A program made the position numbers and the translations under genes. From an uncultured virus (IMG/VR IMGVR_UViG_3300011871_000032) (Duplodnaviria; Heunggongvirae; Uroviricota; Caudoviricetes): a stretch of 64,000 nucleotides of DNA. The DNA lies in IMG/VR virus record IMGVR_UViG_3300011871_000032. One strand, given 5' to 3'. Position 1 is the first letter of the stretch. Each line of letters starts with the position of its first letter. Of this stretch, positions 1 through 59,747 are shown piece after piece. Below the pieces are notes generated by a model, which saw only the letters and a program-made list of their open reading frames with translations, was not told where the DNA came from and made no database searches.

Positions 1-364
1 AACCGCTCGTCCATTTTACAGGGATACGAAGTTTTTCATTAGCTTGCTTTGCCTTTTCCCTTACAGCTTTCTCTCTTTGTCTTCTTTTATTTTCTTCTTT
101 CAAACGATATTCTTTAAGATCAGCTTCTCGTTCAGCTTTTTCTTTCTCAATTTCTTCTTCTGTTTTTCCTACTAAATGATAACTTGCCGGAATGATAACA
201 ACTTTTGTCCCAATAGCAGGAAGTTCTCCTTCAAGAAGATTTAATGTGTCAATAGAGGTTTTTACTGTATTTTCAGATATTACCTCTCCTTCTACAGCAT
301 CTCCTCTTACCTTAGCAGAAAACCAAAAAGGATTTGGGAAAGCAGGCCATTTTAGAAGAAACAT
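1..364 (-). CDS. Hypothetical protein, truncated by window edge (MFLLKWPAFPNPFWF...)
   Basis: Manual translation: GAGGTG RBS, ATG at 364, open to position 1; not in ORF track. Confidence 0.7.
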   Translation of the reverse strand, partial: MFLLKWPAFPNPFWFSAKVRGDAVEGEVISENTVKTSIDTLNLLEGELPAIGTKVVIIPASYHLVGKTEEEIEKEKAEREADLKEYRLKEENKRRQREKAVREKAKQANEKLRIPVKWTSG

Positions 365-416
365 AATCTCACCTCACGCCATTATTATGACAATATAATA
401 TCATAACTGAATATGA

Positions 417-440
417 AAAACCACCCGAAGGTGGCTTTTT
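417..440. terminator. Rho-independent terminator with cUUCGg loop
   Basis: AAAACCACCCGAAGGTGGCTTTTT hairpin just downstream of 448..855. Confidence 0.75.
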
Positions 441-447
441 ATTTAAC

Positions 448-855
448 TTATTCTTCTTCCTCTCTCGGATTATCAATAGCATCTTTAGCGCCATCAGGAA
501 CATTATTCTCCATCAATTGGAACTCTTCAAGTGGAGGAACTACAAAAGAGCTGCTACCTTCTGCTTCATCTACGTTAGCAATGAAATACATTCCACCGAA
601 TGAACCAAAAGCATAACCACCCTTATCAAGTTCAAAAATATCAATATCACCGATATCATCATGACTACGTTTCACATGAGATAGAAGCTCGTGAGCTTCT
701 TTAGAAATCGCAACACAACCTACATCAGCAATAACATAACCAAGAGAGCCTGTATCAAATGGTGTCGTTACAATGTCATTACTTTCTTTTGTTTTATATT
801 CTACTACGATGTGATTTTTATAAGCAGTTACTTCGGCATAGATAGGTTTAGTCAT
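448..855 (-). CDS. Hypothetical acidic protein
   Basis: 135 aa ORF, GGAG RBS, followed by terminator. Confidence 0.75.
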   Translation of the reverse strand: MTKPIYAEVTAYKNHIVVEYKTKESNDIVTTPFDTGSLGYVIADVGCVAISKEAHELLSHVKRSHDDIGDIDIFELDKGGYAFGSFGGMYFIANVDEAEGSSSFVVPPLEEFQLMENNVPDGAKDAIDNPREEEE

Positions 856-1103
856 GTTATCTCCAGTTATTTAATTTAGAACGATATTGTAACAATAAGC
901 TTAGTCATTATCAATAAAAAACTTACTTTATTATTTTATATCCAAAGTATTCACTGCAATAAAAAATATTAATTTTAAAATATTTTACAATCAAATTGAC
1001 CGCTCATAACTTTTTACATGAAGTTTTACACTGATCTATTGATTTAATTCAGTATATTTATTAGGTTGTTTTTATCATATTGGATTTATGTAAGGAAATA
1101 GAA

Positions 1104-1685
1104 ATGAAAGCTTTTAAAATAAATAAAAAAGGATTTAGTTTATTAGAATTACTTTTAGTTTTATCAATAATTGCAAGTCTTATTGTAGCAGCTTTTTTGA
1201 TTTACAAGAAAGTAGATACAAGTAATAAAATTGAAAAAGAAAGAAATAATATATCATTGATAGTATCAGCAACAAAAAGTCTTTTTGCCGGAAAAGTAGA
1301 TTATGAAGGATGGTCTTTAAAAACTTTAGATAATGCCAACCTACTTGCTGATAACTTTATTTATAATAAAGCGACTAATGATGATTTTGGTCAATATAGA
1401 GATGCTTGGGGAAATGAGGTTAATACAGGAACAATAACACCGGGCAATGGTTCTGTTAAAATAGCTGGAGTTTCTTTAGAATATGTTATTCCATCAGAGG
1501 CATGTGTGAAATTTGTATCTTCTGTATTTCCATTAATGGATCGTATAGATGTTAACTATTCTAATATAAAAGATACAACAGTATCTTATATTGACGCTAC
1601 CAAAATAGATGTTTCAGCAATTTCTACATCTTGTGGAAACTCTTCTTATGGCGATTTAAGCACTGTTTCATTAACTTTTTATTAA
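1104..1685 (+). CDS. Type IV (IVb, PilS-like) prepilin
   Basis: Class III signal KKG|FSLLELLLVL, hydrophobic helix, C-terminal Cys pair (EAC...TSC); AAGGA RBS before ATG 1104. Confidence 0.85.
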   Translation: MKAFKINKKGFSLLELLLVLSIIASLIVAAFLIYKKVDTSNKIEKERNNISLIVSATKSLFAGKVDYEGWSLKTLDNANLLADNFIYNKATNDDFGQYRDAWGNEVNTGTITPGNGSVKIAGVSLEYVIPSEACVKFVSSVFPLMDRIDVNYSNIKDTTVSYIDATKIDVSAISTSCGNSSYGDLSTVSLTFY

Positions 1686-1826
1686 TACATTAATAATATA
1701 ATATTATCATGTTTTATTGACTGCAATAAAAAAGAGCACCCGTAGGCACTCTTCTTATTTTTGAAATACTTAGTTTGCCCACCTCTCAGCTAAACACCTT
1801 ACGCAAACCTTCCACAGAAGTATTTC

Positions 1827-2039
1827 TTAACTACTTGTTATATCATACTCTTCTTCTTCATGAATCAGTTCCCCTTGGTAACGAACCTCAAGAGTTGCTG
1901 TTAAGGTTCTATCAGTAAAAGAACCATACCCATGAGAAAAACTTTCTTCTAAAACTAATCTTATATCAATATCACTTAAAACACTTTCCACATCTACATC
2001 TTCTGAAAGAAATGGTTGAACAATATCTAATAAACGCAT
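1827..2039 (-). CDS. Hypothetical protein
   Basis: ORF; AGGAG RBS before MRLL. Confidence 0.6.
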   Translation of the reverse strand: MRLLDIVQPFLSEDVDVESVLSDIDIRLVLEESFSHGYGSFTDRTLTATLEVRYQGELIHEEEEYDITSS

Positions 2040-2121
2040 TTTATATCTCCTGTTGAATTGAATTTTAATGGGATTCACTCATACAAGAAAATATATTATT
2101 AACGCTTCCTTTTGTTATTTA

Positions 2122-2361
2122 TTAGAAATCTAACTCTTTACTTTCATTTTCACGCATAAAATTGTAAATTTGTTGTTCTGACATTAAATCAACTTCATTT
2201 TGAGATAAATTGGATTCATAGAAATAAACTTGAAACCCGATCATTCCCATTTTTTCTTCTGAATAATCTTCGAAATCTTTTGCTGCTTGTAACGTAGTAG
2301 GAATCACTTTAACAAACTGAATACCAGAGCTTTGATCACTCATTTCACAAATTGCTATCAT
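2122..2361 (-). CDS. Hypothetical protein
   Basis: 79 aa ORF with RBS. Confidence 0.6.
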   Translation of the reverse strand: MIAICEMSDQSSGIQFVKVIPTTLQAAKDFEDYSEEKMGMIGFQVYFYESNLSQNEVDLMSEQQIYNFMRENESKELDF

Positions 2362-2398
2362 TATAAATCCCCACCTTTATAATCAATAATATTTTAAT

Positions 2399-2469
2399 TT
2401 GTATGATAGGATTTGAACCTACACCTCCCTAGTCTTAACAGGGGCGCAATACCGTTATGCTACACTACA
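2399..2469 (-). pseudogene. Degenerate tRNA-like element (possible AAG loop)
   Basis: T arm GTAGG-TTCAAAT-CCTAT, D arm, bulged acceptor, loop TTAAGAC, no CCA. Confidence 0.5.
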
Positions 2470-2477
2470 AATTAGAA

Positions 2478-2565
2478 TGGTGTCTCAAGAGGGACTTGAA
2501 CCCTCACGCCCATTACAGGCACTGGCATCTTAAACCAGCGTGTCTACCAATTCCACCATCAAGAC
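2478..2565 (-). tRNA. tRNA-Leu(AAG)
   Basis: Full cloverleaf with long variable arm; anticodon arm CTGGT-TTAAGAT-GCCAG; A73 and encoded CCA. Confidence 0.85.
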
Positions 2566-2570
2566 ATAAA

Positions 2571-2748
2571 GGCAATTTTCGGTTATTCTTCTTCGCTTCT
2601 CAACGAAATAGAATAACCTAGCTGCGTGGAAAGTGTGAACACTATAACATCAATGTCAGGAACTTTCTATGTGTTTCGCCAAAACACATCCAAGAATAGC
2701 GCCGCAGACTTCCAGACTTACCTGCAGATAAGAACTGGCATTCTCTAG
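2571..2748 (-). ncRNA. Candidate structured ncRNA inside tRNA cluster
   Basis: No ORF; several stems (GGTTATTCT/AGAATAACC, ATGTGTTT/AAACACAT, CTGCG/CGCAG, GAAAGT/ACTTTC). Confidence 0.45.
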
Positions 2749-2749
2749 T

Positions 2750-2821
2750 TGTTCAGTACTGGATTCGAACCAGTCTCATTGGAGTTCTCTCCGCTCGATA
2801 TACCACTAATCGCACCTGAAC
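2750..2821 (-). ncRNA. tRNA-like RNA with collapsed anticodon loop
   Basis: Acceptor GTTCAG/CTGAAC, D stem CGAT/ATCG, T arm ACTGG-TTCGAAT-CCAGT; anticodon arm GGAG-AGAA-CTCC. Confidence 0.6.
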
Positions 2822-2830
2822 ATTATTGTT

Positions 2831-2895
2831 AGCCTGTTAGTTCCCGCTCATCTGGAACTCTTCCCCTTTCGGTTGAGAGCACTATTTAACAGGCT
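2831..2895 (-). ncRNA. 65-nt branched RNA abutting a CCA end
   Basis: Closing stem AGCCTGTTA/TAACAGGCT, CC-GAAA-GG and AGTTCC/GGAACT hairpins. Confidence 0.45.
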
Positions 2896-2971
2896 TGGTG
2901 GAGGTTATCGGAATCGAACCGATCAAGGTGCTTGAGTTACAAACAGAGCTGCTTAGCCAAGACTGACCCCC
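2896..2971 (-). ncRNA. tRNA-like RNA with alanine identity (G3:U70, A73, CCA) and no canonical anticodon arm
   Basis: GGGGGTC...ATCGG-TTCGATT-CCGAT-AACCTCC-A-CCA. Confidence 0.6.
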
Positions 2972-3010
2972 ATTAAAACAGCTTTTATACTGTATTATCG
3001 CTAATACAAC

Positions 3011-3226
3011 TTAAAGGCTGTTAGATCTACAAATTACTTGCATTACATCTGAACTACTTTCTTTCAATACATATGTTGGATTACCTTCATACTTAATACA
3101 ACGTTCTGTATACGATTTTAACTCTTGATTTGTTAATGGTTGCTGCTTAGGCAACAACATAAAACTGAAAATAAATAATGATAATAAGGACAAAAATATT
3201 ACATTATTAGATTTTAATGTTCTCAT
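3011..3226 (-). CDS. Small membrane-anchored hypothetical protein
   Basis: N-terminal TM, Cys pair, GAGGTG RBS. Confidence 0.65.
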   Translation of the reverse strand: MRTLKSNNVIFLSLLSLFIFSFMLLPKQQPLTNQELKSYTERCIKYEGNPTYVLKESSSDVMQVICRSNSL

Positions 3227-3242
3227 TTTATCACCTCGTTAG

Positions 3243-3361
3243 TGGCCTTTGCTGGATTCGAACCAGCGCAAAGTAACCCAATACTTAAAAGTTAACGCTT
3301 TAAAATAAGGGTTTTAACGCACTACCCGCTGGTAGCTGCTCTCCCGCTGAGCTAAAAGACC
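3243..3361 (-). ncRNA. 119-nt tRNA-like RNA with non-canonical anticodon loop and ~50-nt extra arm
   Basis: Acceptor GGTCTTT/AAAGGCC, D stem GCTC/GAGC, GCTACC-AGCG-GGTAGT, long AACCC/GGGTT hairpin, T arm GCTGG-TTCGAAT-CCAGC. Confidence 0.7.
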
Positions 3362-3367
3362 GAAATT

Positions 3368-3556
3368 TGGAGCCGCATTAGGGAATCGAACCCTATCAGT
3401 CAAAAGTAACCACCCGATTACTGCTTAAAAATCTAAGCTTAAGTAGATGCCTCTACCGACCTATTTGCAAACCAATCCATACTCACGAGATACTTATGTA
3501 CAATTTTCACCCGCTTTCTTTCGCAAAATGATTTGGAGTCGAACCAAACCACGGCT
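3368..3556 (-). ncRNA. 189-nt CCA-ended double-T-loop RNA, family A copy 1
   Basis: AGCCGTG/TGCGGCT-CCA closing stem, two TTCGA hairpins; paralog at 5447..5635. Confidence 0.75.
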
Positions 3557-3632
3557 TGGTGCATTCGGAGGGATTTGAACCCCCGACACCCGGATCTTCA
3601 ATCCAGTGCTCTACCAACTGAGCTACAAATGC
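3557..3632 (-). tRNA. tRNA-Phe(GAA)
   Basis: 76-nt cloverleaf, loop TT-GAA-GA, CCA. Confidence 0.9.
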
Positions 3633-3737
3633 ATTTCATGAAAAACATAATAACAACTTTTTGATTAAAGTACAACTGTTTTTTCGTATTTTTTATCATA
3701 TGCTAAGGATTTTTTACATCTGCCTTAGCAATGATAG

Positions 3738-4265
3738 TTAAATAGCTGATAAAGATAATTTTTGCTTAAGATATTCTTCACATAGTTTAATTGTAAAGTC
3801 TTTAGGCATTTGTCTTTTCCAATAATCAAGATTACGTAATGTTTCTTGAGCTGCTTTTTCTATTGCCCAAATATTTATATTTGAAGCACAGATTAATACT
3901 TTATTAAAACAACGCTGATCATGATAAATATTTAAATAGGGAATAGAGTGTTCTTTTGGCAATTCTCCCCATGTAAATATTTTTACAAACATCGGAACAT
4001 TTGTCTTAAAAAGACGCTCAAGAAAAGACAGTAATTTAGTATCGCTTAAATTACGGACACTTTTATAATTTTCATCCGTTTCAAGCTCAATAGTTATTAA
4101 TGATCGATCTATATCAATTTTAATTGGCCTGAAAGAAATCTTTGTATCCCATACTTCTTGATATTCCTGAGTTTCTAAGGCTTTTTGAATACCTTCTTTT
4201 AAAGATGAGCACATTTCATCTACTCTAAGATATTTCTTTTTCATAATATTAATAATATTCTCCAT
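3738..4265 (-). CDS. Hypothetical protein
   Basis: 175 aa ORF. Confidence 0.65.
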   Translation of the reverse strand: MENIINIMKKKYLRVDEMCSSLKEGIQKALETQEYQEVWDTKISFRPIKIDIDRSLITIELETDENYKSVRNLSDTKLLSFLERLFKTNVPMFVKIFTWGELPKEHSIPYLNIYHDQRCFNKVLICASNINIWAIEKAAQETLRNLDYWKRQMPKDFTIKLCEEYLKQKLSLSAI

Positions 4266-4268
4266 TAT

Positions 4269-4403
4269 TTTACACGACAGGACTTGAACCTGCAGCCTAC
4301 TTTACGGATAATCAGCAGTATACGGCCTTTCTCCAACCAGATGTTTTTTACGGGGCGTTTCCCCATCATAGTCTGGTGACGTTCTACATTGAACTACGCA
4401 TAA
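4269..4403 (-). ncRNA. 135-nt tRNA scaffold with a large structured insertion replacing the anticodon/variable region
   Basis: Acceptor TTATGCG/CGTGTAA, D stem GTTC/GAAC, ACCAGA/TCTGGT enclosing GGGG-AAACG-CCCC, T arm GCAGG-TTCAAGT-CCTGT. Confidence 0.7.
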
Positions 4404-4487
4404 TGGTGCATAGTGAAGGATTTGAACCCCCGGCGCGATTCCACGGCTTTGCCCACGAATCCGCTCTACCAACTGAGCTAACTATGC
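4404..4487 (-). ncRNA. tRNA-like RNA with extended anticodon arm (15-nt loop)
   Basis: Perfect acceptor GCATAGT/ACTATGC-A-CCA, canonical D and T arms; GATTC-GTGGGCAAAGCCGTG-GAATC. Confidence 0.75.
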
Positions 4488-4541
4488 AATGAAAGTATTA
4501 TACTTATTTTCAGTTTTAAGTACAATACTTTTTACTATTTT

Positions 4542-5057
4542 TTAAGCTTTTATTTTAATTTTACTGCTTATCTCATCTACTTCACCCACGAGTTCGAAAA
4601 GTAGATTATTGATACCTTCTTTTCTTTTTAGCTTTCTTACTATTGCTGGCACTAATTGTTCTTTTAAGGCTAACTTATAACTTTCATTTTGAGATTTTAA
4701 AATTTTCTCTATATTATGGTATAAATTATGCGAATTTAAAATACGTCTAATGTTTTCTCTCATTCTTTCTTCTATAACAATATCAATAGTTTCCTCAACT
4801 ATTTTTTTCGCTAACTCTTCTTTTTCTTGCATTGATAGGCTTAGTATCCTATTAATTACTAAATCTACAAGAATATCATAGAGGTCATCTATCTTTATTT
4901 TAGCATTAAATGGCCTATATTGCTCAAAACAGTTTTCCTCTAATAAATCTTTTTCAGTAAAATATTTATCTACATCATCTTTATTAACAAAAAAATCGCA
5001 AGCATTCTCATGCAACATTTCTTTTAATTCGTTAAAAATTCTTTCTGAGCTTTTCAT
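4542..5057 (-). CDS. Hypothetical protein
   Basis: 171 aa ORF, GAGG RBS. Confidence 0.7.
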   Translation of the reverse strand: MKSSERIFNELKEMLHENACDFFVNKDDVDKYFTEKDLLEENCFEQYRPFNAKIKIDDLYDILVDLVINRILSLSMQEKEELAKKIVEETIDIVIEERMRENIRRILNSHNLYHNIEKILKSQNESYKLALKEQLVPAIVRKLKRKEGINNLLFELVGEVDEISSKIKIKA

Positions 5058-5109
5058 TTTTTACCTCATTTCAATGTAAAAATCCCAGCCCGAAGACTGA
5101 GATTTTATA

Positions 5110-5292
5110 TTATAAATCACCATAGTTTGAGATAACTAACCCTTGTTTAACTTCATAGATTTCCATTTCTGTATCAGGACTATAGTTATATTGAGTTTTC
5201 ATCAACTCCCTTGCGGAAGCTTCATCTTTCTCAATAACTACAATATTACCAGCCCAACCAAAATCAACAACAAACACTTTTAAATCATTCAT
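5110..5292 (-). CDS. Small hypothetical protein
   Basis: 60 aa, AGGAG RBS, terminator after. Confidence 0.7.
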   Translation of the reverse strand: MNDLKVFVVDFGWAGNIVVIEKDEASARELMKTQYNYSPDTEMEIYEVKQGLVISNYGDL

Positions 5293-5365
5293 AAAAATCT
5301 CCTATGTTAAGTTAATTTTTTAGCATAGAAAGATTATGAATTTTTATCATTACAATGTTTTATTT

Positions 5366-5441
5366 TGGTGGCCCTTGTTGGATTTGAACCAACGACCAAT
5401 CGATTATGAGTCGACTGCTCTAACCACTGAGCTAAAGGGCC
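5366..5441 (-). tRNA. tRNA-Ile2(CAU, lysidine type)
   Basis: GGCCCTTTAGCTCAGTGGTTAGAGCAG..CTCATAA..; closely resembles enterobacterial ileX/ileY. Confidence 0.9.
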
Positions 5442-5446
5442 AAAAT

Positions 5447-5635
5447 TGGAACCACAAGGCAAACTACACCCTTTCAGTCAAACATAATCACCAGATTATG
5501 AGGATATATCAAACTTCCATATATCCTTTGGTAGATGCCTCTACCAGACCTATCTATTTGATCCACGAGGTACTTATGTACACTTTTCTCTCACTTCTCT
5601 TTATAGATCATTCGGAATCGAACCGAACAGTGGTT
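5447..5635 (-). ncRNA. 189-nt CCA-ended RNA, family A copy 2
   Basis: AACCAC/GTGGTT-CCA; shares TGTACATAAGTA, GGTAGAGGCATCTAC and TTTGACTGA with copy 1, with compensatory changes. Confidence 0.75.
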
Positions 5636-5639
5636 GTTG

Positions 5640-5726
5640 TGGTACCTGAGACGAGACTCGAACTCGTACAACCGTAAGGTCGAGGGATTTTAAGTCCCTT
5701 GTGTCTACCTATTCCACCACTCAGGC
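5640..5726 (-). tRNA. tRNA-Leu(UAA)
   Basis: Cloverleaf, loop CT-TAA-AA, long variable arm, CCA. Confidence 0.92.
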
Positions 5727-5824
5727 ATAAAGAGCATTCTCATGCTCTCATCTACGTTCACTTTTAATCAAACTTAAAGGTACTTCAATGAAAACCCCAA
5801 TTCATCAAACAATAAGGAGATTTC

Positions 5825-5900
5825 TGGTGCGCCATGCTGGATTCGAACCAGCGACCAATAGCTTAGAAGGCTACTGCTCTATCCACTGAGCTAACAGCGC
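5825..5900 (-). tRNA. tRNA-Arg(UCU)
   Basis: Cloverleaf, loop CT-TCT-AA, CCA. Confidence 0.92.
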
Positions 5901-5910
5901 ATTACTGTCT

Positions 5911-5956
5911 TCGTTTCGATGAAGTAATAATAGCAAAGAGCAGAATGAAGTACAAC
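5911..5956 (-). promoter_or_regulatory. Sigma70-like promoter of tRNA module
   Basis: TTGTAC-17-TATTAT then CATCGAAACG; similar at ~7941-7985 and ~8981-9025. Confidence 0.6.
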
Positions 5957-6066
5957 TTTTTTTTACTTTTTCTCTACTGTTTGCAGATTTTTTAAGCTAT
6001 TTAGCGAATTTTACATCTATTTTTACGAAACAAATAAAAAAGCCTCTTAGAGAGGCTTTTATTTGA

Positions 6067-6495
6067 TCAGATAGATGGTCTTTTGGGTTTTGGAGCATCT
6101 TCATTTGAACGATCTTTAAATTCAAGATACTGACCTAAATAACTGTAGATTTTTTCTTTCGCAATAGGATTTTGAGAATGAACGAAAAAGTTAAAATCCT
6201 TTGGCAAGAAAGATGGATCATCCATATCTTTTTCCACCAACCATTTTGCCAAATCTACACCTTCAAGCTCTCTCATTAAATCATTATCAAAAGAAATGAA
6301 GTTAGGGCAACCATTACGTTCAATGTAATCAATAGCTCCTTCAACAGTGGTATTTACAACGAGTTCACTGTTATATACTTTTTCCAACAGATCATCAGCC
6401 CCAATCAAAGGGTAGTAATAACGTGGATGCCTGATTTTATCAGGATGGAAAGCATCATCATCCAAAAACATAAATACACTTTTCTTTTCAGTCAT
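6067..6495 (-). CDS. Cyclic-phosphate processing receiver-domain protein
   Basis: Motifs FLDD, ISFDNDL, G-x-DLAKWLVE, VHSQNP typical of this receiver-like family. Confidence 0.75.
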   Translation of the reverse strand: MTEKKSVFMFLDDDAFHPDKIRHPRYYYPLIGADDLLEKVYNSELVVNTTVEGAIDYIERNGCPNFISFDNDLMRELEGVDLAKWLVEKDMDDPSFLPKDFNFFVHSQNPIAKEKIYSYLGQYLEFKDRSNEDAPKPKRPSI

Positions 6496-6565
6496 TTTCT
6501 TATTTCCATATCTTAAAGGTGATATTATATTACTATATTCTAATATTAAGATCAACCATTTAATG

Positions 6566-7084
6566 CTACATAAAACATTCTTCGCTTGAACTTCTTATCA
6601 ATAAATCTAAAATCTTTTTCTTTGTAAGTTCTGGAGAATGATGTCCAAAGATATGCGTTTCTCTTAAAACATCTAAAAAATCTTCTACAAAATCATCTTT
6701 TTCAAATCGTAGTTTTTTTATGAAATTATTTTTTAGCATTATATTTTTTTCATAATAAGTTTTATGGTTTATACCATTACCATCATAAATAATATCATTA
6801 TGAATAATCGCTATATGATCTATTCTTATAATGTCATTAAGAATAACCGAGTTTAGAGCTTCTTTTGATTTCTTGTCGATTATTTTGTTAATTTGAATTT
6901 TATCCCATTCTTCTTCATAAAAAATAAAAAGAGCAAATTCTACAAAACCATTATTCTTCATAAAGAAAGGTGTGAGATAATTAGCAAGGTGAGAACAACC
7001 ACCATTTAAAAAATAGTGCTTTGCATTCGCATCTTTTTTTATAGCATTAACGATTTTTTCAATCTCAAAGATGAATTCTTTCAT
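6566..7084 (-). CDS. Hypothetical protein, possible Cys-His-Asp papain/transglutaminase-like fold
   Basis: FLNGGC..A, HI, YDG motifs; similar to 34304..35038. Confidence 0.55.
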   Translation of the reverse strand: MKEFIFEIEKIVNAIKKDANAKHYFLNGGCSHLANYLTPFFMKNNGFVEFALFIFYEEEWDKIQINKIIDKKSKEALNSVILNDIIRIDHIAIIHNDIIYDGNGINHKTYYEKNIMLKNNFIKKLRFEKDDFVEDFLDVLRETHIFGHHSPELTKKKILDLLIRSSSEECFM

Positions 7085-7183
7085 TTTAGTCTCACTATAG
7101 ATAGAAGGTTTTTATTTTAACTATATAAATCGTTTTTAGAATAACAAAAAAGGACATGGCATGTCCTTTTTTAATTGTTTTAT

Positions 7184-7256
7184 AAAAATCTATCAAGAAT
7201 CGAACCTGATAACTTCATCTTATGAGGGCGCTGTTTTACCAATAAACTAAGATTTT
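7184..7256 (-). pseudogene. Degenerate tRNA(CAU)
   Basis: T arm and D arm, loop CT-CAT-AA, mispaired anticodon stem, AU-rich acceptor, no CCA. Confidence 0.5.
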
Positions 7257-7350
7257 TATAAAACTTATTAATAAATCATAAAACAATCTTCTATTGATTA
7301 CAATATTTTTATCTATTTTTTCCATAATTTATTAGAACAAAAGTAATCTT

Positions 7351-7426
7351 TGGTGGCCCCTGTTGGATTTGAACCAACGACCAATCGATTATGAGTCGAC
7401 TGCTCTAACCACTGAGCTAAGGGGCC
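7351..7426 (-). tRNA. tRNA-Ile2(CAU)
   Basis: ileX-like cloverleaf, CCA. Confidence 0.9.
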
Positions 7427-7429
7427 GAA

Positions 7430-7602
7430 TTTAGAGAATGTTGCAGCATTCTCCATTAGTCTCTTGCTAACGTCAATCTGTTTCGCTCGCTATACAGATA
7501 AATAGCACACAGGAGGACTTAAGCTTATCAATTATTTCAAATTAAACAAAATGAACATATTACTACTTCATTTAAAAATGTTTAATCCCGATTGATCACG
7601 GT
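7430..7602 (-). ncRNA. Structured ncRNA, family B copy 1
   Basis: Paralog of 8576..8749 with compensatory stem changes and invariant loop CATATTACTAC (plus strand). Confidence 0.65.
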
Positions 7603-7655
7603 GCCTACATTAATCAAACGTTAAAACAACCACAACACTACCACCACGTAGAGTT

Positions 7656-7742
7656 TGGTACCTGAAGTGGGATTCGAACCCACAAGCCCGTTACGGGCGG
7701 GAGATTTTAAGTCTCCTGTGTATACCATTCCACCATTCAGGC
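7656..7742 (-). tRNA. tRNA-Leu(UAA)
   Basis: Cloverleaf, loop CT-TAA-AA, CCA. Confidence 0.92.
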
Positions 7743-7833
7743 ATAAAAGAGTGGGAGAACACTCTTTAATTAAATGAAAACTTTTAGCAGTACTTTTATT
7801 CACAATCACAACAACACATAGAGGAGACTATGC

Positions 7834-7909
7834 TGGTGCGCCGTGCAGGATTCGAACCTGCGACCAATAGCTTAGAAGGCTACTGCTCTATCCACTGAGC
7901 TAACAGCGC
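7834..7909 (-). tRNA. tRNA-Arg(UCU)
   Basis: Cloverleaf, loop CT-TCT-AA, CCA. Confidence 0.92.
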
Positions 7910-8027
7910 ATTTATCATTTTAATCAATTACTTAGTGCTTCGTTTCAATGTGTTTATAATACCTAAAACCTTTATGAAGTACAACTCTTTTTTCAATATT
8001 TTGTTTATTTATTTTTTCTGTTTTTAC

Positions 8028-8312
8028 TTAATCTAAACGAATTGATGGATTAAGGAAAGGCGGATTACAGACGCTTCCTGATACTTCTTTATTTCCCGGA
8101 TCACGAGCTGTAAAGCTTGTTACTCTTTCGTGTTTAGCACATTTAAAGATATTTCCAGATGAAACTTTAACTTGTGTATAACCTTTATCTTCTAGAAAAG
8201 ATTTAGCTGTATCTTGCCCTGAAAAACAGTGGAAATAAATCGAGCCACTGAATATTGCAGCACCAATTATAAACAGCGGAATGTTTCCTGATTTTGTTTT
8301 ACGTTGAGCCAT
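8028..8312 (-). CDS. Membrane-anchored hypothetical protein
   Basis: N-terminal TM, C..FTA..G.VC pattern of a common small phage family. Confidence 0.7.
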   Translation of the reverse strand: MAQRKTKSGNIPLFIIGAAIFSGSIYFHCFSGQDTAKSFLEDKGYTQVKVSSGNIFKCAKHERVTSFTARDPGNKEVSGSVCNPPFLNPSIRLD

Positions 8313-8341
8313 TTCAAACCCCTTTTTACATTTATTTATTT

Positions 8342-8428
8342 TGGTGCCTCAGACCAGACTCGAACTGGTACAACCTAACGGTCGAGAGATTTTAAGTCTC
8401 TTGTGTCTACCTATTTCACCACTGAGGC
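8342..8428 (-). tRNA. tRNA-Leu(UAA)
   Basis: Cloverleaf, loop CT-TAA-AA, CCA. Confidence 0.92.
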
Positions 8429-8496
8429 ATTTAAGAACATTGCGAGTGTTCTTAAACTACAACCCGTAAAACTAAGCGCAGAGGATCGAAGTCTGC

Positions 8497-8572
8497 TGGT
8501 GGCCCCTGTTGGATTTGAACCAACGACCAATCGATTATGAGTCGACTGCTCTAACCACTGAGCTAAGGGGCC
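8497..8572 (-). tRNA. tRNA-Ile2(CAU)
   Basis: Matches 7351..7426. Confidence 0.9.
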
Positions 8573-8575
8573 GGA

Positions 8576-8749
8576 TTTAGAGAATGCGCCAACATTCTCT
8601 ATTAGTCTCTTCCTAATGTCACCCTGTCTCGCTCACTATACAGGTCAATAGCACAAAGGAGGTACATCGAGCTTATTAATTATTTCAAATTAGATATAAT
8701 GAACATATTACTACTTCATTAATGCTACCTAATCCCGATTAATCACGGT
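8576..8749 (-). ncRNA. Structured ncRNA, family B copy 2
   Basis: Paralog of 7430..7602. Confidence 0.65.
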
Positions 8750-8823
8750 TATGAACAAATGTCTACACAATAAACCACGAACAGCACTACACACAACAAA
8801 CTACACAAAACAAGCGTAGGGGT

Positions 8824-8900
8824 TGGCACGTTGTATAGGATTCGAACCTATGACCTACGGCTTAGAAGGCCGTTGCTCTATCCAACTGAGCTAACAACGC
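8824..8900 (-). tRNA. tRNA-Arg(UCU)
   Basis: argU-like cloverleaf, loop CT-TCT-AA, G73, CCA. Confidence 0.92.
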
Positions 8901-9122
8901 ATTATGTTATTACTATACCATTTTACTTCATTCAGTACAAATCTTTTTTATCTAACTTTTTGATACTTAAGAATATATCTCGTTTCGATGAAGTTATAAT
9001 AGCAAATCAGATCATTGAGTACAAGTCTTTTTTTAATGTTTTTAATCAATAGATTGTTTTTTGATCATATTGCGTATTTTACTATCTTTTAGCTACAAAA
9101 AAGCCGCTTTTCGCGGCTTTTC

Positions 9123-9632
9123 TTATACTTTCCAAAGTAAAAACTCAATGTTATTTTTATTGCCAGAACATTCTTCATGAAGTTGTTCAAAAGTGTTAAT
9201 TTTTATAGATTGTATATCTCGGTTATTTAATATGGTTTTAATTCCCTTTTTAGAACTTGTACTTCTATCCCTATAAAAAGACTCACACTCTGCTTGGGGC
9301 AGATTATTTATTTTTATACTTAATACATCGTTTTTTTCAGATATAGAATAATCAAATTTTGTTTTTTCATGATTAAATGAGTTTATATCTTTTTTATTGA
9401 TAACTTTTTTAAATTCTTCTGTTTTAGTAACGGGATATAATCCAGTATCAATTAATGATTTTATATAGAATATCTTTTGTTTTTCAGTCTGTACTGAAAC
9501 GCTATTCCATTCATACTTTAATTTTTTGTATATGATATCACCTCTTGTAATACCCATAACAGCAATGAGTAAAATAAATGCAGAAATTATAACTACTGGA
9601 AAATAATTTCTTTCATTTTTATTACTATTCAT
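9123..9632 (-). CDS. Pilin-like membrane protein lacking prepilin cleavage motif
   Basis: N-terminal TM; NNLPQAEC...ECSGNKNNIEF resembles type IVb pilin C-terminus. Confidence 0.55.
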   Translation of the reverse strand: MNSNKNERNYFPVVIISAFILLIAVMGITRGDIIYKKLKYEWNSVSVQTEKQKIFYIKSLIDTGLYPVTKTEEFKKVINKKDINSFNHEKTKFDYSISEKNDVLSIKINNLPQAECESFYRDRSTSSKKGIKTILNNRDIQSIKINTFEQLHEECSGNKNNIEFLLWKV

Positions 9633-9699
9633 TTTTTCACCTTTTGATTTGTCATACATATGACTTTATTTTATTTATAAAAAAAACCTCTTCCGAGGT

Positions 9700-10257
9700 T
9701 TAGTTTTTTATAAGCTCTTCAAATAACAGTTTATTATTCTCTTTAAATGAATAAAGATATTTTTTTGTTTCTAATGAAACGACATCTGGAACATCCATAT
9801 TTCCATAAAACATTTCTCTAATTTTAGTACTACTAATAACATCAATACCTTCAAAGTTAACTTCTTCGATAAAATCAGATTTCCACTCAGGGAATAGCTT
9901 TAGATAAAATGTGCTTTCATCACCTGTTTTTTGACATCCTGTAATAAAAACTTGATCGTCTTTATTTGAAATTGAAGAAACAAGTTTTTTAACTTCATCT
10001 ACCCAATCTTGATCTTTTTCAAAATCAGGCAGAGCAAGAATAGATACTTTTTTATTTCCTTTATATTTATTCGTAATATTTTGAACCATTTCTTTTCGTT
10101 CTTCAAAAGAAAAAGGATTTTTACGACTACGAGGTGTATTAGAACTACCAATCAAAATAAGAACTTCATCACCTTCATTAATGGCATGTTTCATTACACT
10201 TTCATGACCAAAGTGAGGAATTTGAAAACGACCAATGTAAACATAAACCTTACTCAT
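9700..10257 (-). CDS. Nicotinamide-mononucleotide adenylyltransferase (NadM-like)
   Basis: YIGRFQIPHFGH, IGSS..KNPFSFEER, ISSTKIR. Confidence 0.85.
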   Translation of the reverse strand: MSKVYVYIGRFQIPHFGHESVMKHAINEGDEVLILIGSSNTPRSRKNPFSFEERKEMVQNITNKYKGNKKVSILALPDFEKDQDWVDEVKKLVSSISNKDDQVFITGCQKTGDESTFYLKLFPEWKSDFIEEVNFEGIDVISSTKIREMFYGNMDVPDVVSLETKKYLYSFKENNKLLFEELIKN

Positions 10258-13878: not shown

Positions 13879-14799
13879 ATGATAAGAGCTAATAAAAAAC
13901 TTATTTTCAAAACAGTCGAAGAAGCACAAAATAATATTCATAGGATACACCATATTGATAAAGAAGGTTTTACTTCATTATTCTTCTGCGAAGATCTAGA
14001 TGTTGTTTCTTTTTTGATTAAAAATGGACTTAATGTTAATCATCAAAGTAAAAAAGGTGTTTCCCCTCTCATGCTTTCTGTTTCCTGTCCTTACGATGAT
14101 ATTCAAAAAGAACAGCTCCTTTTGGATAATGGAGCAGATGTTAATCTTTTAGATAAAAATAATGAAAACGCATTGTTTTATGCTAATGGATTAACTTACG
14201 TTCAAATGCTTGTAGAGCATGGAATAAACATTCATCAAAGAAGTAAATATGGTCATAATATTTTAGCACATATGCTTCATCTTGAAGCTTATGAAACCTA
14301 TGAATATTTATTACATCTTGGCGTTGATCCTGATAATAAAGATTGCGATGGTGAAAACATTCTATTTCAAGGTGAATTAGGACTTAATAGCATAAAAGAA
14401 GTTATTTCATATGGTGCTGACGTTCTTCATATTAATAATCATGGTCAAAATGTTTTAAGATCAGCATTTAGCCCTGAAATTATGGAATATTTTATTGAAC
14501 AAGGTGTTGATCCTCTTGTTATTGATGATGATGGGCATAACTTATATTTTCAAAAAGCTAATCATTACAACAATGATATTTTTGATGTTATTGCTAAATA
14601 TGATATTGATATAAATAAGGTCAATAATAAACAAGAAAATCTTATTCAATATTTACTTAGTGATATTGATAATTATAAGGATATTATGGATAGGCTAAAA
14701 CCTTATTATGAAGAAAAAATAAATAAGTTTGTTTCTTTAGGCTTTATTATGGATAGTAAAACTGAAAAACTGATTCAAGAAAAAATATATAATGCTTAA
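13879..14799 (+). CDS. Ankyrin-repeat protein
   Basis: Repeated LLxNGADVN..D..GENAL units. Confidence 0.88.
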   Translation: MIRANKKLIFKTVEEAQNNIHRIHHIDKEGFTSLFFCEDLDVVSFLIKNGLNVNHQSKKGVSPLMLSVSCPYDDIQKEQLLLDNGADVNLLDKNNENALFYANGLTYVQMLVEHGINIHQRSKYGHNILAHMLHLEAYETYEYLLHLGVDPDNKDCDGENILFQGELGLNSIKEVISYGADVLHINNHGQNVLRSAFSPEIMEYFIEQGVDPLVIDDDGHNLYFQKANHYNNDIFDVIAKYDIDINKVNNKQENLIQYLLSDIDNYKDIMDRLKPYYEEKINKFVSLGFIMDSKTEKLIQEKIYNA

Positions 14800-59634: not shown

Positions 59635-59747
59635 TTGTTTCACCTTCGACTAAATATAATGTATATGTTTCATTTATATTATATTTAATCAAAAACTCAA
59701 CTTTTTTGTTTTAAAAAACTAAATAAAGTAAAATGATTAGTATTCCT

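What the first reader, a model, noticed from the sequence alone, without database searches (positions are those of the whole stretch)
2399..4487. Array of tRNA-scaffold RNAs with intact acceptor/D/T arms but rebuilt anticodon arms
Seen: at least four minus-strand elements keep a paired acceptor stem, D stem and a TTC(G/A)A T-loop. In each, the 7-nt anticodon loop is replaced by different, still base-paired structure: a 4-nt loop (2750-2821), a 4-nt loop plus ~50-nt hairpin arm (3243-3361), a ~60-nt branched insertion (4269-4403), and a 15-nt loop that extends the stem (4404-4487). They sit head-to-tail with true tRNAs. Decay would hit all arms, but here the change is concentrated in the decoding arm. 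Known: the elbow and acceptor are what RNase P, the CCA-adding enzyme and EF-Tu read, and host anticodon nucleases (PrrC, RloC, PARIS AriB) attack anticodon loops. Inference: these are processed, non-decoding tRNA mimics, either nuclease decoys or tRNA chassis carrying RNA payloads.
Basis: partly seen in the sequence, partly recalled or inferred. Interest (0 to 1): 0.9.

Follow-up and report, generated by a model that had tools for sequence, protein, structure and literature searches.

The report
Array of non-decoding tRNA look-alikes
A large virus-like mobile element carries, among its real tRNA genes, at least four conserved tRNA-shaped RNA genes that cannot read codons, the same little-understood kind of RNA long known from phages T4 and T5.

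Summary
On the minus strand of 2397-4487 lie 11 head-to-tail RNA units in three clusters, each cluster followed by a small ORF. Two are ordinary tRNAs (Phe, Leu-AAG) and one is an odd short-arm AAG tRNA. Four keep a tRNA frame but have no 7-nt anticodon loop: U1 4404-4487, U2 4269-4403, U5 3243-3361 and U8 2750-2821. Three of these pass Rfam's tRNA threshold (45.7, 33.4, 41.5 bits); U8 does not match. Four further units (U4, U6, U7, U9) are other structured RNAs, two of them ending in an acceptor-like stem plus CCA. All 11 units recur in the only relatives found, two close strains. U8, U9 and the U4 family show compensatory pair changes. No spliced form and no splicing enzymes were found, so an intron reading is unlikely. 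The design and layout match phage T5's annotated "tRNA-like stable RNAs with unknown functions" and T4 rnaC/rnaD. My best reading is non-decoding tRNA-frame RNAs matured by host tRNA-processing enzymes and acting through the tRNA body. Expression, RNA ends and any decoy or payload role remain untested. This is a new member of a known but unexplained kind.

The parts
4496..4535 (-). Promoter-like site of cluster 1: A-tract, TTGTACT, 15-16 nt spacer, TATAAT
   Evidence: Motif scan: 8 minus-strand matches in 64 kb, 5 of them in the RNA island (9024, 7984, 5955, 4525, 3675). The generic sigma-70 scan was not enriched.
4404..4487 (-). U1: tRNA frame closest to tRNA-Phe. The anticodon arm is lengthened: 5-bp stem, 3x3 internal loop, 3-bp stem, AAA triloop. 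It ends ACCA and abuts U2.
   Evidence: RF00005 45.7 bits; MFE fold; frame likeness. One difference from G001 and two from OKEV, all in the T loop or discriminator.
4269..4403 (-). U2: tRNA frame with 77 nt in place of the anticodon arm (7-bp stem carrying a G/C hairpin, then a loosely structured stretch). No encoded CCA. The first ATG of the next ORF lies 4 nt downstream.
   Evidence: RF00005 33.4 bits; fold. Variant 4342 in G001, OKEV and all 4 RNA-library contig sets adds a C-G pair to the stem.
3738..4265 (-). ORF of 175 aa, no known family, following cluster 1
   Evidence: no PHROG or Pfam match. Only 2 relatives, at 99% and 87% identity. Structure model unusable, pLDDT 44.
3646..3685 (-). 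Promoter-like site of cluster 2
3557..3632 (-). U3: canonical tRNA-Phe(GAA), ends CCA and abuts U4
   Evidence: 69.4 bits
3368..3556 (-). U4: 189-nt structured RNA closed by an acceptor-like stem plus CCA, with a T-loop-like hairpin at the 5' side and a T arm at the 3' side. A paralogue of the same length lies at 5447-5635.
   Evidence: Consensus fold over 6 sequences: 43 pairs, 6 with compensatory changes, 99.6% of cells paired against 35-47% when partners are slid
3243..3361 (-). U5: tRNA frame closest to tRNA-Met. The anticodon arm is a 6-bp stem with a 4-nt loop, and there is a ~53-nt extra arm. No CCA. The ORF start lies 17 nt downstream.
   Evidence: RF00005 41.5 bits; G001 copy 43.1 bits; fold z -2.91; alignment
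3011..3226 (-). ORF of 71 aa with a hydrophobic N-terminal stretch, following cluster 2
   Evidence: translation read
2896..2971 (-). U6: 76-nt RNA with an acceptor stem carrying G3-U70, a discriminator A, CCA and a canonical T arm, but no clear D or anticodon arm. It abuts U7.
   Evidence: Sequence; fold z -0.99; identical in G001 and OKEV; no tmRNA call
2829..2895 (-). U7: 67-nt hairpin-closed RNA with a 9-bp terminal stem
   Evidence: Fold z -2.96
2750..2821 (-). U8: tRNA-shaped RNA whose anticodon arm is a 4-bp stem with a 4-nt loop; no CCA
   Evidence: No Rfam match; MFE fold. 19% diverged in G001, yet 2 pairs changed on both sides and stayed paired, while 2 cells are unpaired.
2566..2749 (-). 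U9: ~184-nt structured RNA, not tRNA-like
   Evidence: 7 of the 9 compensatory pairs of alignment A3 lie here
2478..2565 (-). U10: long-arm tRNA-Leu(AAG) with CCA
   Evidence: 48.7 bits
2397..2471 (-). U11: short-arm tRNA with a 7-nt loop and anticodon AAG. One acceptor base is bulged and there is no CCA. An ORF follows.
   Evidence: 39.1 bits
2122..2361 (-). ORF of 79 aa following cluster 3

Best explanation
U1, U2, U5 and U8 are working, non-decoding RNAs built on a tRNA frame. They belong to the same kind as phage T5 RNA1/RNA2/RNA3 and T4 rnaC/rnaD. Shown here: they derive from tRNA genes, lack a 7-nt anticodon loop, and lie in the sense direction behind recurring promoter-like sites together with true tRNAs and other structured RNAs. 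They are kept in all three genomes, and where sequence has diverged (U8) the pairs have co-varied. Inferred: each cluster is transcribed as one precursor. Host RNase P cuts at the 5' end of each unit, which also frees the encoded CCA end of the unit before it (U1|U2, U3|U4 and U6|U7 abut with 0 nt between them). Units without CCA (U2, U5, U8, U11) need an endonuclease cut and host CCA addition, or stay attached to the downstream mRNA. The mature RNAs fold into an L shape but cannot pair with codons. I think they most likely act through the tRNA body (elbow and acceptor end) as competing ligands for host proteins that bind tRNA, in a counter-defence neighbourhood. The rebuilt arm would serve mainly to keep the fold while abolishing decoding. 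I put about 0.55 on the class and its biogenesis, and about 0.25 on the competing-ligand role specifically.
For: tRNA model scores are 45.7, 41.5 and 33.4 bits, against a threshold of 29. Unconstrained folds give cloverleaf-like structures. The U1 frame scores 39 of 59 against the neighbouring tRNA-Phe, and the U5 frame 29 of 50 against a tRNA-Met. All 11 units are present in the same order in G001 and OKEV. Units U1-U7, U10 and U11 differ from G001 at 13 of 909 nt, while the ORF175 segment differs at 21 of 531 and the ORF71 segment has 11 substitutions plus a 30-nt indel in 232 nt. For U8+U9, 9 of 77 pairs changed on both sides and stayed paired; shuffles gave a mean of 2.8 and 0 of 500 reached 9, and slid controls gave 0-2. 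Two of those pairs are in U8. Five of five units with encoded CCA are followed by another RNA unit within 0-7 nt (read). The promoter-like motif stands before clusters 1 and 2 and three more tRNA sub-clusters. T5 has the same layout of promoters, small ORFs, tRNAs and annotated 'tRNA-like stable RNA with unknown functions'. T5 RNA1 fits the tRNA model over 131 nt at 24 bits and folds as a tRNA frame with a replaced loop. Engineered tRNA scaffolds whose anticodon stem-loop is replaced by an insertion region holding a foreign RNA, kept as a hairpin, are recognised by E. coli cellular factors and protect the embedded RNA (PMC3753655, passages). T-even phage tRNA dimers less than 5 nt apart are processed by RNase P (PMC11143913, passages). 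The neighbourhood holds a cREC_REC gene, linked in print to RNA repair, plus cytidylyltransferase-like and 5'-nucleotidase genes (PMC7824862 passages).
Against: There is no evidence of transcription, discrete RNAs, RNA ends, CCA addition or charging. The four RNA-library runs were available only as contigs, and these cover ORFs and RNA units at similar flat depth, so DNA carry-over cannot be excluded. Comparative depth is shallow: the only relatives are two close strains, at 94% and 98.9% identity. U1, U2 and U5 therefore show almost no informative change, and their conservation is no better than that of the adjoining promoter regions. Between strains the frames are only slightly less variable than the arms. 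U8 fails the Rfam tRNA model, and in G001 it has lost its first acceptor pair. No protein partner is known. That the replicon is a phage rests on the IMG/VR label and a few PHROG matches; 3 informative capsid or terminase Pfam families gave no match in G001.
Confidence: 0.55

Rival explanations
1. They are cis-acting processing and stability modules. The tRNA frames serve only as cut sites ('punctuation') or as protective 5' structures for the co-transcribed RNAs and the small ORFs that end each cluster. The released tRNA-shaped pieces would have no job of their own.
For: Each of the three clusters ends in a CCA-less tRNA-shaped unit placed 4, 17 and 36 nt before an ORF start (U2, U5, U11). 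Selection on the frame alone would explain why arm loops vary while hairpins persist. RNase P is known to process mRNAs and other non-tRNA substrates (PMC11143913 passages).
Against: Real tRNAs would serve equally well as cut sites, and the island has many. U1 and U8 are not next to ORFs. U1's rebuilt arm is invariant in both relatives and carries one loop variant in 1 of 4 RNA-library contig sets, which frame-only selection does not need.
Confidence: 0.2
2. They are decaying duplicates of tRNA genes with no function: pseudo-tRNAs.
For: ARAGORN and Rfam give low or no scores for U2 and U8. The U2 D loop lacks GG. The U5 arm carries a 7-nt tandem duplication in one strain. The U8 stem has a mismatch in OKEV, and its first acceptor pair is lost in G001. 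The available relatives are too close to prove purifying selection on U1, U2 and U5.
Against: Acceptor, D and T stems are intact in all four units, and the replaced arms are themselves paired. At 19% divergence U8 keeps its fold, with two compensated pairs. The neighbouring non-tRNA units show strong covariation, so the island as a whole is under selection for RNA structure. The same design is an experimentally named stable RNA in T5 (annotation).
Confidence: 0.1
3. They are tRNA genes interrupted by short introns or insertions that are removed to give decoding tRNAs. ARAGORN reads U1 as Pro-GGG with an 8-nt intron and U5 as Lys-UUU with a 40-nt intron.
For: ARAGORN -i makes these calls.
Against: ARAGORN's anticodon stem for U5 has only 3 Watson-Crick pairs (read from the sequence). 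The inserts of 8-77 nt are far shorter than group I introns, and no intron family matched in Rfam. The U1 arm is a symmetric internal loop, not a bulge-helix-bulge. G001 has no match to tRNA_int_endo, RtcB or RNA_ligase. No contig from four RNA libraries shows a joint across any unit, though contigs can hide rare forms.
Confidence: 0.04
4. They are partners of the element's own Ro60-like (TROVE) protein, that is, functional analogues of bacterial Y RNAs, which also mimic tRNA.
For: G001 encodes a 559-aa TROVE-domain protein: Pfam 26.8 bits against a cut-off of 23, and E 6e-17 to solved TROVE proteins 9kop_A and 9l5y_A. Y RNAs with tRNA-like domains occur in 22 bacteriophages (PMC4201824 passages).
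Against: The TROVE gene lies about 150 kb from the island in G001, whereas nearly all YrlA genes lie within 4 kb of their Ro gene. The motif GNCGAAN0-1G is absent from every RNA unit. YrlA carries its ends in the Ro-binding stem, whereas these RNAs have open acceptor ends.
Confidence: 0.06

Closest known systems
Phage T5 RNA1, RNA2 and RNA3 (annotated in NC_005859 as 'tRNA-like stable RNA with unknown functions' and 'putative tRNA-like RNA')
   Same: They lie inside a tRNA gene region broken up by promoters and small ORFs, head-to-tail with tRNAs and other stable RNAs. T5 RNA1 fits the tRNA model across 131 nt, so it is a tRNA frame with a large insert (24 bits; fold). T5 RNA2 has an acceptor stem, a T arm and an internal T-loop-like hairpin, like U4.
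   Different: No sequence likeness: blastn of 2200-4700 against 50,697 phage records listed only tRNA-Leu and tRNA-Phe segments among its 30 best places. The units here are closer to tRNA, at 33-46 bits against 24 bits or no match. There are four of them within 2.1 kb.
Phage T4 rnaC and rnaD (annotated as species 1 and species 2 RNA; small stable RNAs at the end of the tRNA cluster)
   Same: They stand head-to-tail directly after a tRNA gene. rnaC keeps a T arm and a closing stem. Their function is still unknown (recalled).
   Different: Neither matches RF00005; rnaC scores only 17.5 bits to tRNA-Sec. No D arm is evident, so they are much less tRNA-like than U1, U2 and U5.
Engineered 'tRNA scaffold' RNAs (PMC3753655)
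   Same: Acceptor stem, T and D arms are kept, and the anticodon stem-loop is turned into an insertion region kept as a hairpin. Such fusions are recognised by E. coli cellular factors and protect the embedded RNA (passages).
   Different: They are man-made. They show that the design can work, not what the natural RNAs do.
Bacterial and phage Y RNAs (YrlA) bound by Ro60/Rsr
   Same: They are tRNA-mimicking non-coding RNAs. One (M. smegmatis YrlA) is cut by RNase P and receives CCA. The relative G001 encodes a TROVE protein.
   Different: The Ro-binding motif is absent, the units are not next to the TROVE gene, and the topology is opposite (open acceptor ends here).
tmRNA tRNA-like domain
   Same: U6 has a G3-U70 pair, a discriminator A, CCA and a T arm but no anticodon arm.
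   Different: There is no tag reading frame and no ARAGORN tmRNA call. Rfam tmRNA families reach only 10.7 bits, E 1.6. There is no SmpB match in G001. U6 is 76 nt long.

Membership tests
Canonical decoding tRNA (Rfam RF00005) | Covariance-model score at or above the gathering score of 29 bits | tested here: met
   U1 45.7, U5 41.5 and U2 33.4 bits. Not met for U8, which has no match at E<=10.
Canonical decoding tRNA (Rfam RF00005) | 5-bp anticodon stem closed by a 7-nt loop that carries the anticodon | tested here: not met
   Loops are 15 nt (U1), 4 nt (U5) and 4 nt (U8). U2 has a 77-nt insert.
Intron-bearing tRNA gene | A recognisable intron type: a group I intron, or a bulge-helix-bulge motif with a splicing endonuclease and ligase | tested here: not met
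   No intron family matched in Rfam. G001 has no match to tRNA_int_endo, RtcB or RNA_ligase. The U1 arm is a symmetric 3x3 internal loop.
Intron-bearing tRNA gene | Spliced RNA exists | tested here: inconclusive
   No joints in the contigs of 4 RNA libraries. Contigs drop rare forms and may derive from DNA.
Phage tRNA-like stable RNAs (T5 RNA1-3, T4 rnaC/rnaD) | Encoded within the tRNA gene region, same strand, head-to-tail with tRNAs | tested here: met
Phage tRNA-like stable RNAs (T5 RNA1-3, T4 rnaC/rnaD) | Partial tRNA architecture (acceptor-like stem and T arm) without a decoding loop | tested here: met
   for the window; for T4 and T5
Phage tRNA-like stable RNAs (T5 RNA1-3, T4 rnaC/rnaD) | Accumulates as a discrete stable RNA in infected cells | not testable with these tools
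   Only contigs of RNA libraries could be laid
Phage tRNA-like stable RNAs (T5 RNA1-3, T4 rnaC/rnaD) | Sequence homology to the T4 or T5 RNAs | tested here: not met
   blastn against the phage collection listed only tRNA-Leu and tRNA-Phe segments among the 30 best places. The kinship is one of design, not of sequence.
Y RNA / YrlA | GNCGAAN0-1G motif near the 5' end (PMC4201824) | tested here: not met
   One match on the minus strand of 1-10000, at 837 and outside the RNA units; shuffles give a mean of 2.1
Y RNA / YrlA | Encoded within about 4 kb of the Ro60/TROVE gene on the same strand | tested here: not met
   The TROVE gene is at G001:28-30 kb and the island at 180-182 kb
tmRNA (considered for U6 only) | tRNA-like domain plus a tag reading frame; detected by ARAGORN or Rfam | tested here: not met
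   No tmRNA call; best Rfam tmRNA match 10.7 bits, E 1.6

The most novel reading that the evidence does not exclude
The island is a natural 'tRNA-scaffold' platform. The tRNA frame supplies processing by RNase P, CCA ends and nuclease resistance. The exchangeable arm (U1's lengthened helix, U2's G/C hairpin domain, U5's long arm, and the 131-nt paralogue at G001:298298-298428 with a different ~60-nt domain on a U5-like frame) would be an effector that binds or soaks up a host or element protein. Candidates are a tRNA-directed immune enzyme acting at the acceptor end or elbow, or the element's own Ro60-like protein. If so, the long-unexplained T4 and T5 stable RNAs would belong to a widespread class of RNA-based counter-defence.
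Probability: 0.15. Interest if true: 0.85.

Novelty: new member of a known kind. Interest (0 to 1): 0.5.

Why it matters
tRNA-shaped stable RNAs have been annotated in T4 and T5 for decades without a known function. This element packs at least four of them, plus at least four other structured RNAs, into 2.1 kb. It occurs in public sequencing runs from 15 studies, including runs filed under organism names, so it may be reachable at the bench. If the frames prove to be decoys or carriers, that would add an RNA layer to phage counter-defence and give a natural precedent for tRNA-scaffold engineering. If they are only processing signals, that would still explain a common oddity in the annotation of viral tRNA arrays, where finders mislabel them as in the 'tRNA-Pro' and 'tRNA-Lys with intron' calls here.

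Tried and rejected
1. Intron reading. The ARAGORN -i calls were rejected for the reasons given under the rival explanations.

2. tmRNA reading of U4 and U6. There is no ARAGORN call. An apparent tag frame in U4 is broken by a 1-nt indel in its paralogue and lies in a conserved hairpin. There is no SmpB match in G001.

3. Y RNA reading. The motif, adjacency and topology tests all failed.

4. Expression evidence. Four RNA-library runs were laid, but they are contigs with flat depth over ORFs and RNA units alike. Gaps in cover and contig ends were not used as evidence.

5. Deeper relatives.
- The 15-mer scan of IMG/VR gave 75 loci, and only the G001 locus carried the units.
- The ORF175 locus search found only G001.
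- The ORF175 protein search found 2 clusters, both at 87% identity or more.
- The gapped U4 pattern found 0 loci in genome contigs and 3 loci on 2 contigs in metagenome contigs, both near-identical strains.
- The plasmid collection matched only tRNA segments among the rows listed.
- No earlier scan notes exist for this genome or for the U4 sequence.

6. Function of the flanking ORFs. There are no PHROG or Pfam hits. The ESM Atlas gave nothing usable. The AlphaFold models have pLDDT 44 and 43, so no fold search was run.

7. Generic sigma-70 scan. It was not enriched: 25 sites found against 29.8 expected.

8. Stop-codon recoding. The window reads well under the standard code.

9. Phage hallmark genes. 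Terminase_6N, Phage_capsid and TerL_ATPase gave no match in G001. The Gp23 search rang in no control genome, so it says nothing.

10. Habitat.


Full report
**What is there.** The window is AT-rich (about 30% G+C), and nearly all its genes lie on the minus strand. Between 2397 and 4487 the minus strand holds 11 RNA units (sequence). They form three clusters, and each cluster is followed by a small ORF.
- Cluster 1: U1 (4487-4404) and U2 (4403-4269), then a 175-aa ORF.
- Cluster 2: U3, tRNA-Phe (3632-3557); U4 (3556-3368); U5 (3361-3243); then a 71-aa ORF.
- Cluster 3: U6 (2971-2896), U7 (2895-2829), U8 (2821-2750), U9 (2749-2566), U10 tRNA-Leu(AAG) (2565-2478) and U11 (2471-2397), then a 79-aa ORF.

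A recurring promoter-like motif (A-tract, TTGTACT, 15-16 nt, TATNAT) stands before clusters 1 and 2 and before three more tRNA sub-clusters upstream. Five of its 8 minus-strand matches in the 64 kb are in this island. A generic sigma-70 scan was not enriched.

**Checking the observation.** ARAGORN at default settings genes in the range: two Leu-AAG, Phe, and U1 as 'Pro-GGG'. With introns allowed it relabels U1 as carrying an 8-nt intron and calls U5 'Lys-UUU with a 40-nt intron'. It never calls U2 or U8, even at 80% threshold.
- U1 matches Rfam's tRNA model at 45.7 bits, with 15 nt where the 7-nt loop belongs.
- U2 scores 33.4 bits, with 77 nt in place of the arm.
- U5 scores 41.5 bits. It is missing from the E-value scans, which I cannot explain, but its G001 copy scores 43.1 bits.
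- U8 has no match at E<=10.

Unconstrained folds give cloverleaf-like shapes with paired replacement arms:
- U1 has a 5-bp stem, a 3x3 internal loop, a 3-bp stem and an AAA triloop.
- U5 has a 6-bp stem with a 4-nt loop plus a ~53-nt arm.
- U8 has a 4-bp stem with a 4-nt loop.
- U2 has a 7-bp stem bearing a G/C hairpin.

Energy z-scores run from -1.7 to -2.9, like those of the true tRNAs (-1.6 and -1.95).

**Origin.** The U1 frame is closest to the neighbouring tRNA-Phe (score 39 of 59), and the U5 frame to a tRNA-Met (29 of 50). U2 and U8 have no clear parent. They therefore look like duplicated tRNA genes whose decoding arm was rebuilt.

**Relatives.** The window's own assembly is not held. 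The nearest record, G001, is a 341,648-bp IMG/VR record labelled provirus, 97% complete by CheckV. It aligns at 94% identity over 2200-4700. A metagenome contig (OKEV, 162,793 bp) is 98.9% identical, and a short contig (PPYF) covers only the U4 paralogue. Nothing more distant was found. All 11 units are present and in the same order in G001 and OKEV.

Units U1-U7, U10 and U11 differ from G001 at 13 of 909 nt. The ORF175 segment differs at 21 of 531 nt, and the ORF71 segment has 11 substitutions and a 30-nt indel in 232 nt. U8 and U9 differ at 14 of 72 and 37 of 184 nt. Because divergence is patchy and shallow, conservation alone proves little for U1, U2 and U5.

**Covariation.** The informative patches point to selection on structure.
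- In the U8+U9 alignment, 9 of 77 predicted pairs changed on both sides and stayed paired. Shuffles gave a mean of 2.8, and 0 of 500 reached 9; slid controls gave 0-2.
- Two of these pairs are in U8, one closing the D arm and one in the short stem. U8 also has two unpaired cells: its first acceptor pair in G001 and one stem pair in OKEV.
- The U8 loop letters differ in every genome.
- The U5 long arm carries two substitutions at its base in G001 and a 7-nt tandem duplication at its tip in OKEV.
- The U4 family (two 189-nt paralogues in 3-4 genomes) has 43 pairs, 6 of them compensated. In it, 99.6% of cells are paired, against 35-47% when partners are slid.

Variants seen in four RNA-library contig sets fall in the U1 triloop, T loop and discriminator, and one of them adds a pair to the U2 stem. 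Summed over the four tRNA-shaped units, 12 of 222 frame positions vary. In the 188 arm positions, 10 are substituted and there is one duplication. That difference is only modest.

**Are they spliced?** No contig from the four RNA libraries joins across any unit. G001 has no match to the tRNA splicing endonuclease, RtcB or RNA_ligase families. No intron family matches. The inserts are far too short for group I introns. I rate the intron reading at about 4%.

**Processing signals.** U1|U2, U3|U4 and U6|U7 abut with no spacer, and the upstream unit ends in an encoded CCA. In all, 5 of 5 units with encoded CCA are followed by another RNA within 0-7 nt. The three units that directly precede ORFs (U2, U5, U11) lack CCA. 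This is the arrangement of T-even tRNA dimers, where RNase P cleavage is part of maturation (PMC11143913, passages). G001 has no match to the CCA-adding enzyme family PolyA_pol, so any CCA addition would fall to the host.

**Comparison with what is known.** The T5 record annotates RNA1 (144 nt) and RNA2 (125 nt) as 'tRNA-like stable RNA with unknown functions', RNA3 as 'putative tRNA-like RNA', and five further 'stable RNA with unknown functions'. All lie in a tRNA region cut up by promoters and small ORFs. T5 RNA1 fits the tRNA model over 131 nt at 24 bits and folds as a tRNA frame with a replaced loop. T4 annotates rnaC and rnaD directly after tRNA-Arg, but these do not match the tRNA model.

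Engineered tRNA scaffolds show that such frames are recognised by E. coli factors and protect the embedded RNA (PMC3753655, passages). Rfam holds no family for any of the units. A 2026 preprint on three bacterial tRNA-mimic families concerns other motifs (abstract only). Six literature searches found no paper on arrays of anticodon-less tRNA frames in phages. The library lacks most subscription journals, where the original T4 and T5 work lies. Earlier notes of this scan report similar RNAs in other viral arrays. I used them only as a pointer to T4 and T5, which I then checked.

**Context.** The island continues to about 9.1 kb, with three Met-Leu(UAA)-Arg(UCU) sets. It also holds a cREC_REC gene at 6067-6555, a domain proposed to process cyclic phosphate RNA ends (PMC7824862 passages). 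Cytidylyltransferase-like and 5'-nucleotidase genes follow. G001 holds 38 matches to the tRNA model, including another rebuilt frame of 131 nt at 298298-298428 and two CUA-anticodon tRNAs. It also encodes a TROVE (Ro60-like) protein. Tests for Y-RNA membership failed.

The viral nature of the replicon is not proven here. Most ORFs are orphans, and PHROG matches were found for 5 of 20 and 18 of 66 ORFs. Three informative hallmark Pfam families gave no match in G001. The window also holds a pilin-like gene and a shufflon-domain gene.

**Verdict.** The finding is real and well placed. It is a new and unusually dense example of a kind of RNA already named in T5 and T4, whose function is still unknown. 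The biogenesis I propose follows from the anatomy and from established tRNA processing. The competing-ligand role is inference. Nothing here supports cleavable anticodon-nuclease decoys.

Noticed in passing
window 3368-3556 and 5447-5635 (minus strand): Two 189-nt paralogous RNAs (U4 and U4p), about 69% identical. Each has an acceptor-like closing stem plus CCA and a T-loop-like hairpin right after the 5' strand. Six pairs are compensated. No Rfam family matches.
   Followed up: yes
window 2566-2749 (minus strand): U9, a ~184-nt RNA with several hairpins. Its stems are rewritten between the window and G001 while one loop (UGGCG) is kept. Seven compensated pairs.
   Followed up: partly
window 7427-7655 and 8573-8823 (minus strand): Two long spacers between tRNA genes share a ~175-nt core, 81-86% identical when measured against the G001 copies. 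They are probably another family of non-coding RNA.
   Followed up: no
window 2896-2971 (minus strand): U6 has the alanine identity pair G3-U70, a discriminator A and CCA on a frame without an anticodon arm. It might be chargeable with alanine, like the tRNA-like domain of tmRNA.
   Followed up: partly
window 2397-2471 and 2478-2565: Two adjacent AAG-anticodon tRNAs, one with the long Leu arm and one short-arm type with a bulged acceptor base and no CCA. A34 Leu tRNAs are unusual in bacteria (recalled).
   Followed up: no
window 7184-7256: A weak, very AT-rich 'tRNA-Met(CAU)' (29.7 bits), directly followed by a terminator-like hairpin.
   Followed up: no
L083 8815-8889 and L085 7375-7448 (G001): Two tRNAs with anticodon CUA, which reads the amber stop. 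In the window, TAG ends only 2 of 67 ORFs of 100 aa or more, and the standard code fits. Stop-codon recoding elsewhere in the element is possible.
   Followed up: partly
L085 6796-7054 (G001:89.8-90.1 kb): A HEARO RNA (the RNA that goes with IscB-type nucleases) at 137 bits, next to tRNA genes.
   Followed up: no
L093 6033-7712 (G001:28.0-29.7 kb): A 559-aa TROVE/Ro60-like protein. About 2 kb downstream lies a ~300-nt gene-free stretch with a promoter-like site and a terminator-like hairpin that could hold a small RNA.
   Followed up: partly
L086 3299-3429 (G001:298298-298428): A 131-nt tRNA frame (46 bits) with a ~60-nt structured insert that includes a UUCG-capped hairpin. Its frame resembles that of U5.
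   Followed up: partly
window 28440-30932; 1080-1685; 57976-59643; 13879-14799: A full-length MutS (five MutS domains), a type IV pilin-like gene, a protein with a shufflon N-terminal domain that also hits a tail-fibre PHROG, and an ankyrin-repeat protein. This is an odd mix for a phage.
   Followed up: no
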